Assembly (NCBI RefSeq): GCF_009914755.1
Contig: NC_060946.1
Origin: the human T2T-CHM13v2.0 reference genome, Homo sapiens
Strand: one strand, 5' to 3'
DNA length: 64,000 nucleotides
Shown: piece after piece, positions 48,401 through 58,967 of the stretch
Position numbering within the stretch: the stretch's first letter is position 1
Layout of the letters: each line of letters starts with the position of its first letter
Notes under the pieces: model-generated
The model's input: only the letters and a program-made list of their open reading frames with translations
Databases searched by the model: none
What the model was told of the DNA's origin: nothing
Position numbers and translations under genes: made by a program

Positions 48401-51400
48401 AACTTTTAAGTTCAGGGGTACATGGGCAGGATGTGCAGGTTTGCTACATATATAAATGTGTGTCATGAGAGTTTGTTGTACAGATTATTGCATCACCCAT
48501 ATATTGAGCCTAATATCAGTTATTTTTCCTGATCCTCCCCCTCCTCCCACCTCCCACCCTCCAGTAGGCCCCACGCTCACAAATTCTAAGAGGAGTGGGG
48601 GACCACAAAGGCCAGTGTGGCCCACTTCAGTTGTGAAGTTAATTTGCTCAGCAACTGGCCAAAGTCTATAAGGATGGGTGATGTATTTTAGTAGATTTAG
48701 TAATACTATCTTCCCAAGCCCTAAAATGCTCAAATCCTGCCAGCCAAAAATGGTGAGGAGGGACAGATAGGAACTCTGTGTGGCACTTGGTTATTAGCCT
48801 GGCTTCCATCCCTTAGTGGCAACTCTCTTGTATATGTGGGTTAAAGACCCTCAGCCTCAAGCCAAGCCTCCTCCATGAGGAGCCATCTCACTATTGACCG
48901 GCTAGTGCCGGGTATGGCCACCAGCCCAACTGAAACAAAATGTTGCTTTAAAACACGTGTAAATCTCATACATACAACAGGCAAATGCAGAAGCAGTGTG
49001 GTCTCGCAAGTTGTAAAGAGGACAGTCGCAATTTTGCTGGACTTCAACCTGGGTAGAAGACATGAGGGAACTCTGTCACTGAATCACGGCAGAGTTCAAG
49101 GCCACTTGCAGACTATTTCATGTTATAGAAGGTGGCCTTTAGCTACTAAGCAAAGGCCTCTGTTTCTCATTTCTTTCCTGTTCATCTTCTTCGTCATCCT
49201 TCTTCCGCAAGGGAAACGAGCCCAAGCAAAAGACAGTTTCAATATTAATTTGACCGAGGTTTTGTGCAGTTAATTATCATCCAGGTAATCAGGTGCAACC
49301 CAGTCTGCCTAGCAGCCCCCCTATCTCTGCTCTGTGTTTTCATTTAATAAACATTTTGGTCTACTTACTATGTGCTAGATTTTCTCGAGACCAAGTAAAT
49401 GAGATAGAATCTTTATGTTGGCAGCTAAGTTAGATTTAACATAACTGACAAAAATTAAAATTTCTGATTTCTTGTAAAAATATTTTGTATGTGTGAATGC
49501 ATACTGAATGTAAAGTGGATAAAAAAAATCACACTTGCACTCATGGAAGGCTTTTCATGAATTTGTCAATTTCTATTTTTTTATATTTCCCCATTTCACC
49601 GGATAATACATACCTGAACCTGGAAAATGATTCCCACAGCAGAAAGTGTTCTGAGCCACATCCCTTAGCTTCACTAGTGCAGGTCCACCTGGGAGTATGT
49701 CCCACCATCAGCTTGACCCATGCTGTAATCAGCCACCTCCATGCATCACACCAAGCAAGCCCCTGGGTGATTCACAGTCTCCAGCACCAGGGCACTGACC
49801 TTAACTCTGTGTTCTTCTAGCTCCCTATGAGGACACTGTACACGACATCGCTAATGAGGACGCTGTATATGACATCGCTACTGAGGACGCCATATATGAC
49901 ATCGCTAACGAGGACGCCGTCCAGGGCATCGCAAAGGAGGACGCCGCCCAGGGCATCGCTAACGAGGAAGCCGTCCACGACATCGCTAACGAGGATGCCG
50001 CCCACGTAATCGCTAACGAGGACGCCGCCCAGAGCATCGCTAACGAGGACGCGGTCCACGACATCGCTAACGAGGATGCCACCCAGGGCATCGTTAATGA
50101 GGACGCCGCCCACAATATCGCTAATGAGGACGCCGCCCACGGCGTCGCTAACGAGGACGCCGTCCACTGCATCGCTAACGAGGTCGCCGCCCAGGGCGTC
50201 CTTAAAGAGGACGCCGCCCAGGACATCGCAAACGAGGACGCCGCCCAGGGCATCGCTAACGAGGACGCCGCCCACGGCATCGCAAACGAGGACGCAGCCC
50301 AGGACATCGCAAACGAGGACGCCGCCCAGGACATCGCAAACGAGGACGCCGCCCAGGGCATCTCTAAGGAGGACGCCGTCCAGGGCATCGCTAAGGAGGA
50401 CCCCGTCCAGGGCGTCGCTAACGAGGACCCCGTCCAGGGCGTCGCTAACGAGGACGCCGTCCAGGGCATCGCTAAGGAGGACCCCGTCCAGGGCGTCGCT
50501 AACGAGGACCCCGTCCAGGGCGTCGCTAACGAGGACGCCGTCCAGGGCATCGCTAACGAGGACGCCGTCCACGGCGTCGCTAAAGAGGTCGCCGCCCACG
50601 GCGTCGCTAACGAGGATGCCGCCCACGCGATCGCTAAGCCGGACGCCGCCCGCGGCATCGCTAACGAGGTTGCCGCCCAGGGCATCGCTACCGAGGACAT
50701 CGCCGACGGCGTCGCTAACGAGGACGCCGCCCACGGCGTCGCTAACGAGGTCGCCGCCCAGGGCGTCGCTAACGAGGACGCCGTCGAGGGCGTCGCTAAC
50801 GAGGACGCCGCCCAGGGCGTCGCTAAAGAGGTCACCGCCCACGGCGTCGCTAACGAGGACGCCGTCCAGGGCGTCGTTAACGAGGACGCCCTCCACGGCG
50901 TCGTCGCTAACGAGGATGCCGCCCAAGCGATCGCTAAGCCGGACGCCGCCCATGGCATCGCTAACGAGGTCACCGCCCAGGGCATCGCTAACGAGGTCGC
51001 CATCCACAGCATCGCTATCGAGGACACCACACCGTCCAGGGCGTGGCTAACGAGGTCGCTGCCCAGGGCATCGCTACCGAGGATGTCGCCGACGGCATCG
51101 CTGAGGACGCCGCCCATGGCATCACTAACAAGGAGGCCGCCCAGGCCATCGCTAAGCAGGATGCCGCCCACGGCATCACTAACGAGGACGCCGTCCAGGG
51201 CGTCGCTAACGAGGTCGCCGCCCAGGGCGTCGCTAACGAGGACGCCGCCCACGGCGTCGCTAACGAGGTCGCCGCCCACGGCGTCGCTAACGAGGACGCC
51301 GCCCAGGGCGTCGCTAACGAGGTCGCCGCCCAGGGCGTCGCTAACGAGGACGCCGTCCAGGGCGTCGCTAACGAGGACGCCGTCCAGGGCGTCGCTAACG

Positions 51401-57000: not shown

Positions 57001-58967
57001 ACGAGGACGCCGTCCAGGGCATCGCTAACGAGGACGCCGCCCACGGCATCGCCAACGAGGACGCTGCCCAGGGCATCGCGAACGAGGACGCCGCCCAGGA
57101 CATCGCAAACGAGGACGCTGCCCAGGGCATCTCTAAGGAGGACGCCGTCCAGGGCATCGCGAACCAGGACGCCGCCCAGGGCATCGCTAAGGAGGACGCC
57201 GTCCAGGGCATCGCTAACGAGGACGCCGCCCAGGGCATCGCTAACGAGGTCGCCGCCCACGGCATCGCGAACGAGGACGCCGCCCAGGGCATCGCGAACG
57301 AGGACGCCGCCCAGGGCATTGCACACGAGGACGCCGTCCAGGGCATCGCTAACGAGGACGCCGTCCACGGCGTCGCTAACGAGGATGCCGCCCACGCGAT
57401 CGCTAAGCCGGACGCCGCCCGCGGCATCGCTAACGAGGTCGCCGCCCAGGGCATCGCTACCGAGGATGTCGCCGACGGCATCGCTAACGAGGACGCCGCC
57501 CACGGCGTCGCTAACGAGGATGCCGCCCAAGCGATCGCTAAGCCGGACGCCGCCCATGGCATCGCTAACGAGGTCGCCGTCCACAGCATCGCTATCGAGG
57601 ACACCACACCGTCCAGGGCGTGGCTAACGAAGTCGCTGCCCAGGGCATTGCTACCGAGGATGTCGCCGACGGCATCGCTGAGGACGCCGTCCAGGGCATC
57701 ACTAACGAGGAGGCCGCCCAGGCCATCGCTAAGCAGGACGCCGCCCACGGCATCACTAAGGAGGACGCCGCCCAGGGCGTCACTAACGAGGTCGCCGCCC
57801 AGGGCGTCGCTAACGAGGACGCCGCCCACGGCGTCGCTAACGAGGTCGCCGCCCACGGCGTCGCTAACGAGGACGCCGCCCAGGGCGTCGCTAACGAGGT
57901 CGCCGCCCAGGGCGTCGCTAACGAGGACGCCGTCCAGGGCGTCGCTAACGAGGTCGAAGTCCAGGGCATCGCACACAAGGACGCCATCCAGGGCATCGCT
58001 AACGAGGACGCCGCCCAGGGCGTCGCTAACGAGGTCGCCGCCCACGGCGTCGCTAACGAGGATGCCGCCCAGGGCGTCGCTAACGAGGTCGCCGCCCAGG
58101 GCGTCGCTAACGAGGACGCCGCCCAGGGCGTCGCTAACGAGGTCGCCGTCCACGGCGTCGCTAATGAGGACGCCGCCCGGCACATGGCTAAGGAGGACGC
58201 CGCCCAGGGCATCGCTAACGAGGACGCCGCCCACGGCATCGCTAACGAGGACGCCGTACACGGCATCGCTAATGAGGATGCCGTATATGACATCGCTAAT
58301 GACACCGTACAAGGCACGCTAACGAGGACACTGTACAGGACATCGCTAATGAGGACACCATACAAGGCATCGGTAATGAGGACGCTGTATACGACATCGC
58401 TAACGAGGACACCCTACAAGCCGTCGCTAACAAGGACACTGTACACAACATCGCTAATGAGGGCACCATACAAGACATCACCAATGAGGGCGCTTTATAC
58501 GACATTGCTAATGATACCGACAAGGCACGCTAACGCGGACACTGTACACGACATCGCTAATGAGGACACCGTATAAGACATCGCTAGTAACTATCGCAAG
58601 AACAAAAAACCAAACACTGCATATTCTCACTCATAGGTGGGAATTGAACAATGAGATCACATGGACACAGGAAGGGGAATATCACACTCTGGGGACTGTT
58701 GTGGGGTGGGGGGGGGAGGGATAGCATCGGGAGATATACCTAATGCTAGATGACGAGTTAGTGCGTGCAGCACACCAGCATGGCACATGTATACATATGT
58801 AACTAGCCTGCACAATGTGCACATGTACCCTAAAACTTAAAGTATAATAAAAAAAAAAAGACATTGCTAGTGAGCACACTGTATACGACATCGCTAATGA
58901 GGATGCTATATATGACATCGCTGATGAGGACGTTGTACACGACATCACTAATGAGGACACCATACAG
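49823..58967 (+). repeat. CpG-rich 27-bp VNTR (consensus ggcatcgctaacgaggacgccgcccag), roughly 320 units with higher-order blocks
   Basis: 9-aa periodicity in four stop-free frames; degenerate units at both edges; recurring variant units of 24, 30 and 32 bp. Confidence 0.97.
58589..58857 (+). mobile_element. L1PA2-like 3' end (~270 bp) inserted in the VNTR edge
   Basis: Young L1 3' UTR with gatgacGAGttagtg (not the Ta ACA) and aacttaaagtataataaa; TSD aagacatcgctagt/aagacattgctagt. Confidence 0.88.

What the first reader, a model, noticed from the sequence alone, without database searches (positions are those of the whole stretch)
51005..57630. Recurrent +5-nt node rotates the VNTR reading frame acidic -> basic -> stop
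Seen: a 32-bp variant unit (gaggacACCACaccgtccagggcgtggct) occurs three times, at ~51020, ~54028 and ~57597. The spacings are 3008 and 3569 bp, both 2 mod 3. Each node converts ANEDAAQGI into SLTRTPPRA (..[15 protein letters not shown]..) and converts the basic frame into a stop (..RTPHRPGRG*). The spliced product would be ~400 acidic residues followed by ~1,010 Arg/Ser/Thr/Pro-rich residues, i.e. a charge-diblock disordered protein with many TP/SP sites. Inference: the number and position of nodes per allele would set protein length and net charge.
Basis: partly seen in the sequence, partly recalled or inferred. Interest (0 to 1): 0.7.

Follow-up and report, generated by a model that had tools for sequence, protein, structure and literature searches.

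The report
Copied frameshift in a FAM230 repeat
A five-base duplication sits three times in a known 27-base repeat next to the human FAM230G gene and would flip an acidic protein repeat into a basic one and then stop it, but it is likely a single old slip copied along as the repeat grew, not a built-in switch.

Summary
Observation confirmed. The array at 49846-58579 has 324 units, mostly 27 nt; three are an identical 32-nt unit (ACACC doubled), rotating the frame acidic to basic to stop. It is the published FAM230 VNTR of 22q11.2. The 'recurrent node' reading is not supported: the three copies lie in one ~0.5-kb block (96-98% identical, six shared markers), so one event was copied; 0 of 8 paralogues carry it; the 2-mod-3 spacing is arithmetic; no frame shows synonymous excess; the antisense strand is equally open. 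The protein reading is partly supported: upstream exons form an intact spliced ORF into the acidic frame in 9 of 9 copies (1,532 aa here: 120 + 402 acidic + 1,010 basic), resembling cDNA-derived B4DYQ5, for which junction-spanning peptides are published. But RefSeq transcripts of this copy end 1.8 kb before the repeat, and the stop lies over 4 kb before any exon end, a likely decay target. Frame-switching exonic VNTRs are known (NPIPB). Verdict: a copy-specific, probably neutral frameshift; the better lead is that FAM230 'lncRNAs' may be coding.

The parts
49846..58579 (+). 27-nt GC-rich VNTR, 324 units, two open frames per strand (plus strand: acidic IANEDAAQG, basic SLTRTPPRA)
   Evidence: GC 0.68, CpG o/e 1.34
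51010..51041 (+). 32-nt unit 1 (ACACC doubled): acidic-to-basic switch of the spliced ORF
54018..54049 (+). 32-nt unit 2: moves the spliced ORF into the closed frame; TAA at 54056-54058
57587..57618 (+). 32-nt unit 3: downstream of the stop, no effect on the spliced ORF
50902..51443 (+). node cassette copy 1 (~20 units)
   Evidence: 97.1% to copy 2, 98.0% to copy 3
53910..54397 (+). node cassette copy 2
57506..57993 (+). node cassette copy 3
   Evidence: 96.3% to copy 2
49800..49821 (+). splice-acceptor-like site, exon would begin at 49821; not used by the listed RefSeq FAM230G models
   Evidence: homologous acceptors before short acidic exons elsewhere
33815..33918 (+). exon 1 copy with the only ATG (33891, weak context), start of MGNLCGC; 26 near-identical copies of its 3' end in the window
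36464..36522 (+). coding-frame exon 2
36991..37015 (+). short exon 3 that keeps the ORF open (the long form to 37123 closes it at 69 aa)
   Evidence: peptide [12 protein letters not shown] spans its 3' junction
39961..40047 (+). exon 4
44968..45033 (+). exon 5
47037..47098 (+). exon 6
   Evidence: peptide [15 protein letters not shown] spans exon 5/6
47564..47597 (+). exon 7 up to the internal donor GTAAGT at 47598; RefSeq models read through it to 47978 (AATAAA 47957)
58293..58313 (+). part of the 23-nt (-4) unit starting at 58291; a 23-nt unit gives the acidic-to-basic switch in the 7 other chr22 copies
58373..58378 (+). only donor-like site (GTAATG) found in the array, 4.3 kb past the stop
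58588..58860 (+). sense L1-like 3' fragment with target-site duplication and AATAAA at 58846 (L1 identity recalled, not tested)

Best explanation
The three 32-nt units are likely copies of one replication-slippage duplication of ACACC that arose only in this LCR22B copy of the FAM230 repeat and was likely carried along passively when kilobase blocks of the array were duplicated by unequal exchange. The frame rotation follows from arithmetic: the 27-nt unit has one TAA, so two frames are open, and any +2-mod-3 change walks acidic to basic to closed. If the repeat is spliced on (inferred from a paralogous cDNA, not shown for this copy), node 1 diverts the ancestral acidic frame and node 2 gives a stop over 4 kb before any exon end, so the message would likely be unstable and the 1,532-aa charge-diblock product rare or absent.
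For: Shown: node = ACACC ACACC, with the undoubled variant present once at 51589. Three cassettes 96-98% identical versus 82.6% for random unit pairs; six marker motifs each occur exactly three times, beside the nodes. Node-to-node blocks are collinear: 75 unit pairs aligned, 65 within one mismatch, score 53.5 versus shuffle maximum -113.5 in 20 shuffles. No match within 4 mismatches in the 8 paralogous arrays. No synonymous excess: acidic 63 observed vs 68.0 expected, basic 63 vs 68.1, nor in the block where each would be read; CpG C>T 34 vs G>A 32. Two antisense frames are as open. Only 2, and 1, of 81 single changes make a stop in the acidic and basic frame. The paralogous exon carries other -4 and -5 units and TAA stops. 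RefSeq models end at 47978 (hub table); a long-read fusion transcript was reported with FAM230G exons 2-7 (PMC12104687, passages).
Against: The spliced ORF and all splice dinucleotides of exons 2-8 are intact in 9 of 9 copies, where about 2.6 disabling changes were expected (P0 0.077). Homologous short exons are read in the acidic frame with the same phase (53 nt on chr18, 356 nt at C22:23.89). Peptides from the family ORF and from a basic frame are published (PMC12679747); one, TPPTASLTR, occurs among the nine copies only here (15x) and on chr13 (2x). All other chr22 copies also end their ORF with an acidic-to-basic switch. A fast-evolving disordered testis protein need not show synonymous excess. 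Substitution counts are inflated by conversion between units, so the tests are weak.
Confidence: 0.78

Rival explanations
1. This copy is a real, low-level germ-line or cancer-cell protein gene: the repeat is spliced and translated as a 1,532-aa acidic-then-basic disordered protein, the node being an accidental but expressed frameshift like the NPIPB exon-8 switch.
For: Intact 8-exon ORF; net charge -81 then +214, 86 SP/TP sites in the basic block; B4DYQ5, a cDNA-derived entry, has the same exon chain and an acidic-basic switch (compared by eye); a 7516-bp repeat in 'USP41,FAM230A' was counted through a GENCODE coding label (PMC4079513; same array inferred).
Against: No listed transcript of this copy includes the exon; weak ATG context; stop 4.3-4.8 kb before the candidate exon ends; the three family peptides are shared by 7-9 of 9 copies and none enters the repeat; the authors class these entries as unplaced, without conservation.
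Confidence: 0.13
2. The node is a selected genetic rheostat: its number and position per allele tune protein length and net charge.
For: Arithmetically the first two nodes would set charge and length; the VNTR varies in length among paralogues and alleles (PMC13103302, passage).
Against: Single origin, private to one copy, node 3 irrelevant, no frame-specific constraint; allele variation in node number not tested.
Confidence: 0.04
3. The nodes are assembly or consensus errors.
For: Found in one assembly only; raw reads and other assemblies could not be examined.
Against: A clean 5-nt tandem duplication, identical three times, each within a cassette whose other units differ by 2-4% between copies, is not the pattern expected of random read error or of one collapsed copy.
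Confidence: 0.03

Closest known systems
FAM230 27-bp GC-rich VNTR of the 22q11.2 25-kb repeat (PMC13103302; two passages read, main supplementary PDF unreadable)
   Same: Same element: 27-bp period, GC-rich, in FAM230, length differs among paralogues (0.9-1.3 kb before the L1 fragment in 7 chr22 copies, about 5 kb on chr13, 8.7 kb here).
   Different: The passages treat it as a lncRNA exon and mention no reading frames or 32-nt unit; supplementary Figs 15-16 and Note 2 could not be read.
NPIPB exon-8 coding VNTR (bioRxiv 10.1101/2025.02.04.636496; passages read)
   Same: Young duplicated human gene family, last-exon VNTR with two open frames, frameshift inside the array switching the encoded motif.
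   Different: NPIPB switches and returns to frame in each paralogue of the subfamily and is backed by 8,986 cDNA molecules; here the +5 unit is in 1 of 9 copies, ends in a stop, and no cDNA of this copy was seen.
MUC1 VNTR frameshift insertions (PMC12776774, passages)
   Same: Small insertion in a GC-rich 3n VNTR that shifts the frame and truncates the protein.
   Different: MUC1 is a proven coding gene and the insertions are pathogenic; no phenotype is known here.
UniProt B4DYQ5 (cDNA FLJ61480), Q9UF83 and K4HVA1 (PMC12679747 section 17 and Tables S1, S2, S5 rows; PMC11601488 passages)
   Same: B4DYQ5 has the same N-terminus and exon chain, acidic repeats and an acidic-to-basic switch; Q9UF83 is the basic frame, and the chr13 copy has a 1,696-codon open basic frame ending in the Q9UF83 terminal peptide.
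   Different: They come from other copies or alleles and lack the 32-nt unit in the parts shown; B4DYQ5 switches at the -4 unit.
DRICH1-like Asp-rich exon modules at C22:24.06-24.07 Mb and 25.80 Mb, and chr18 copies (name recalled from position and sequence, not returned by a call)
   Same: Homologous splice-acceptor flank (75-82% identity) followed by short acidic exons of the same entry phase.
   Different: Those exons are short; here one has expanded into a multi-kilobase repeat.

Membership tests
FAM230 27-bp VNTR | 27-bp GC-rich tandem unit inside a FAM230 duplicon | tested here: met
FAM230 27-bp VNTR | Length differs among paralogues | tested here: met
FAM230 27-bp VNTR | Transcribed as an exon at this copy | not testable with these tools
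   No RNA data; RefSeq models here end at 47978, though donor 47598 and acceptor 49820 are intact
Frame-switching coding VNTR (NPIPB type) | 3n unit with two open frames and a non-3n unit inside the array | tested here: met
Frame-switching coding VNTR (NPIPB type) | Same switch shared across paralogues | tested here: not met
   32-nt unit in 0 of 8 paralogues; a different, -4 unit switches frame in 7 of 7 other chr22 copies
Frame-switching coding VNTR (NPIPB type) | Full-length cDNA or peptides across the switch | not testable with these tools
   Node-spanning tryptic peptide is 71 aa; no RNA data
Programmed or phase-variable frameshift element | Reversible slippery tract or independent recurrence | tested here: not met
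   Three identical units on one cassette background, no length variants
Protein-coding gene family | Intact spliced ORF in the copies | tested here: met
   9 of 9 copies, 306-1,532 aa; a tenth, more distant copy (C22:23.89) could not be assembled because exon 5 is only partly alignable
Protein-coding gene family | Purifying selection on codons | tested here: not met
   3 synonymous vs 19 non-synonymous variants on 80:280 sites; 18 exon changes vs 14.5 expected; repeat tests
Protein-coding gene family | ORF survival beyond chance | tested here: inconclusive
   expected 2.57 disabling changes, P0 0.077
Protein-coding gene family | Peptide evidence assignable to this copy | tested here: inconclusive
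   Published peptides map to shared exons or also to chr13

The most novel reading that the evidence does not exclude
FAM230 'lncRNAs' are a young testis protein family grown from an Asp-rich exon module, and the LCR22B copy makes a 1,532-aa charge-diblock disordered protein (net -81, then +214) whose length and charge differ between people with the position of the first two 32-nt units in the VNTR.
Probability: 0.1. Interest if true: 0.7.

Novelty: new member of a known kind. Interest (0 to 1): 0.3.

Why it matters
As a node, little: it is a useful copy-specific marker for the LCR22B repeat and a clear record of how the array grew. The by-product matters more: nine FAM230 copies annotated as lncRNA keep an intact eight-exon ORF that matches a cDNA-derived protein with published junction-spanning peptides, described there as not placeable in the genome. 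If the family is coding, 22q11.2 rearrangements remove or fuse protein genes now ignored, and this copy would be a naturally frameshifted member, testable with long-read RNA and copy-specific peptides.

Tried and rejected
Spacing as evidence of design: rejected, arithmetic. Frame openness as evidence of coding: rejected, antisense frames equally open. An apparent lack of stops in one antisense frame (0 vs 7.5 expected) was not taken as antisense coding: repeated counting of converted alleles inflates the expectation; by distinct alleles it is 1 of 5 stop-capable alleles seen (in a non-stop context) against 48 of 81 overall. Pfam scan of the three long frames: 0 families for the acidic block, two sub-threshold compositional hits. 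A Pfam accession recalled for the Asp-rich relative proved to be another family, so that name stays recalled. A recalled PRDM9-type 13-mer: 0 sites. The bacterial promoter/terminator scan has no bearing. One search used an exon-7 end one base too long; its joined frames are superseded. Literature searches listed no paper on the 32-nt unit or on DRICH1-FAM230 homology; only listings and selected passages were read, and the large supplementary PDFs of PMC13103302 could not be seen. Earlier scan findings were not available.

Full report
1. Observation. The quoted motif is at 51020, 54028 and 57597. The array 49846-58579 splits into 324 units: 311 of 27 nt, five of 30, three of 32, three of 24, one of 23 and one of 22. 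The 32-nt units start at 51010, 54018 and 57587 and are identical; the extra bases are a direct doubling of ACACC, and the undoubled variant exists once at 51589. The unit has one TAA, so each strand has two open frames; across each node acidic becomes basic, basic meets a stop, and the closed frame becomes acidic. All units between nodes are multiples of three (110 of 110, 131 of 131), so the 2-mod-3 spacing restates the node's length.

2. One origin. The three nodes lie in a cassette of about 0.5 kb that is 96.3-98.0% identical between copies, against 82.6% for random unit pairs; six marker motifs each occur three times, always beside a node. The node-1 and node-2 blocks are collinear over 75 unit pairs (65 within one mismatch; score 53.5, best of 20 shuffles -113.5). 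So one slip was copied with kilobase blocks (mechanism inferred). An exact search of the assembly found only these three places, and none of the 8 paralogous arrays fetched (7 on chr22, 1 on chr13) has a match within four mismatches. None of the 107 distinct core units occurs in the other chr22 copies and 6 occur on chr13: this array has evolved on its own.

3. What the array is. It is the GC-rich 27-bp VNTR reported in the FAM230 25-kb repeat, varying among paralogues and alleles and described as part of a lncRNA exon (PMC13103302, two passages; 12 readable supplements had no mention; the two large PDFs were unreadable). A 7516-bp repeat listed for 'USP41,FAM230A' in an older reference (PMC4079513, passage and one supplement row) is probably the same array at another length (inferred). 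The acceptor before the array is homologous to acceptors before short acidic exons: 53 nt on chr18 (one unit-like motif), 356 nt at C22:23.89 Mb (same phase, open only in the acidic frame), and Asp-rich modules near 24.06 and 25.80 Mb (DRICH1 by recall). The acidic frame is therefore likely ancestral and the basic frame a by-product.

4. Could it be translated? With the short exon 3 (36991-37015, listed in the hub table) and the donor at 47598, exons 1-7 join the acceptor at 49821 in the acidic frame. This ORF is intact in 9 of 9 copies: 1,532 aa here, 430-574 aa in the other chr22 copies, 306 aa on chr13; a tenth, more distant copy could not be assembled. Here it is 120 N-terminal, 402 acidic (net -81) and 1,010 basic residues (net +214, 86 SP/TP), ending at TAA 54056-54058. 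A PeptideAtlas audit lists cDNA-derived B4DYQ5 with the same exon chain and three peptides (PMC12679747, section 17 and table rows); two span exon junctions of this model, but they are shared by 7 to 9 of 9 copies and none enters the repeat. The tissue statements conflict: testis and cancer lines (main text), all cancer cells (Table S2), mostly testis or sperm (preprint PMC11601488, passages). Basic-frame peptides are assigned to Q9UF83, nearest to chr13. TPPTASLTR occurs 15 times here and twice on chr13, but never with the following residue listed for K4HVA1, so it is not diagnostic.

5. Against function of the node. The listed FAM230G models stop at 47978; the shown one uses the long exon 3, closing the ORF at 69 aa. 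If the repeat were spliced on, the stop would lie 4.3 kb before the only donor-like site (58373) and 4.8 kb before the AATAAA at 58846, which by established rules invites nonsense-mediated decay (inferred). Node 3 is past the stop; the two other long frames have no ATG until their basic part. Changes among 123 distinct units show no synonymous excess in either frame, overall or in the block where the frame would be read; CpG C>T and G>A are balanced, 34 to 32. The N-terminal exons show 3 synonymous and 19 non-synonymous variants on 80:280 sites and 18 changes against 14.5 expected. ORF survival is only suggestive (P0 0.077). The other chr22 copies switch acidic to basic at a different, -4 unit and carry -5 units and stops further on: frame changes are common in this exon. 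These tests have low power and conversion between units inflates counts.

6. Comparison and verdict. It works like the NPIPB exon-8 VNTR, where frameshifts switch the encoded motif, and like MUC1 VNTR frameshifts, but lacks NPIPB's sharing across paralogues and cDNA support. It is not a programmed or reversible switch. Most likely (0.78) a passively copied, copy-specific frameshift; expressed diblock protein 0.13; selected rheostat 0.04; assembly error 0.03. Eight literature searches listed no paper on the 32-nt unit, within the limits of listings and passages read. The stronger lead is the intact coding frame of the FAM230 family. Interest 0.3.

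Noticed in passing
window 33815-49821 and 8 paralogues (L004-L011, L018-L033): An eight-exon ORF starting MGNLCGC (lipidation-like start, polybasic stretch; motif reading recalled) is intact in 9 of 9 FAM230 copies annotated or described as lncRNA and matches cDNA-derived B4DYQ5 by eye.
   Followed up: partly
window 11519 and 14369-33918: An 813-bp tandem array (25 copies) plus one upstream copy gives 26 near-identical copies of the 3' end of exon 1, with its ATG and donor region, next to the AT-rich palindrome region.
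   Followed up: no
window 58967 onward versus L005/L004: This copy is cut short after the L1-like fragment: the repeat runs into an Alu-like sequence before USP41P, whereas the other chr22 copies continue about 0.75 kb of units to the ancestral donor.
   Followed up: partly
L011 (G000:C13:13.67-13.68 Mb): The chr13 copy has a 1,696-codon open basic frame from the exon start, with an ATG at its third codon, ending in the terminal peptide listed for Q9UF83; it has its own register changes.
   Followed up: partly
L013, L014 (chr18), L012, L015-L017 (chr22): A series from a 53-nt single-unit exon (two chr18 copies) through a 356-nt in-phase expansion to multi-kilobase arrays; acceptor flank shared with Asp-rich exon modules near C22:24.06 and 25.80 Mb.
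   Followed up: partly
window 49846-58579: The array is a CpG-island-like block (GC 0.68, CpG o/e 1.34) overlapping RefSeq enhancer calls at 57200-58093, with decayed CpG at both ends; a DNA-level role was not tested.
   Followed up: no
window 49846-58290, minus strand: One antisense frame has no stop in any block although it has five stop-capable alleles; judged a counting artefact but not fully explained.
   Followed up: partly
L005, L007, L008, L009: A GTAATG donor-like site 458-566 nt into the repeat exon is close to the 462-478-bp eighth exons cited for FAM230D and FAM230F, suggesting some models splice out of the repeat there.
   Followed up: no
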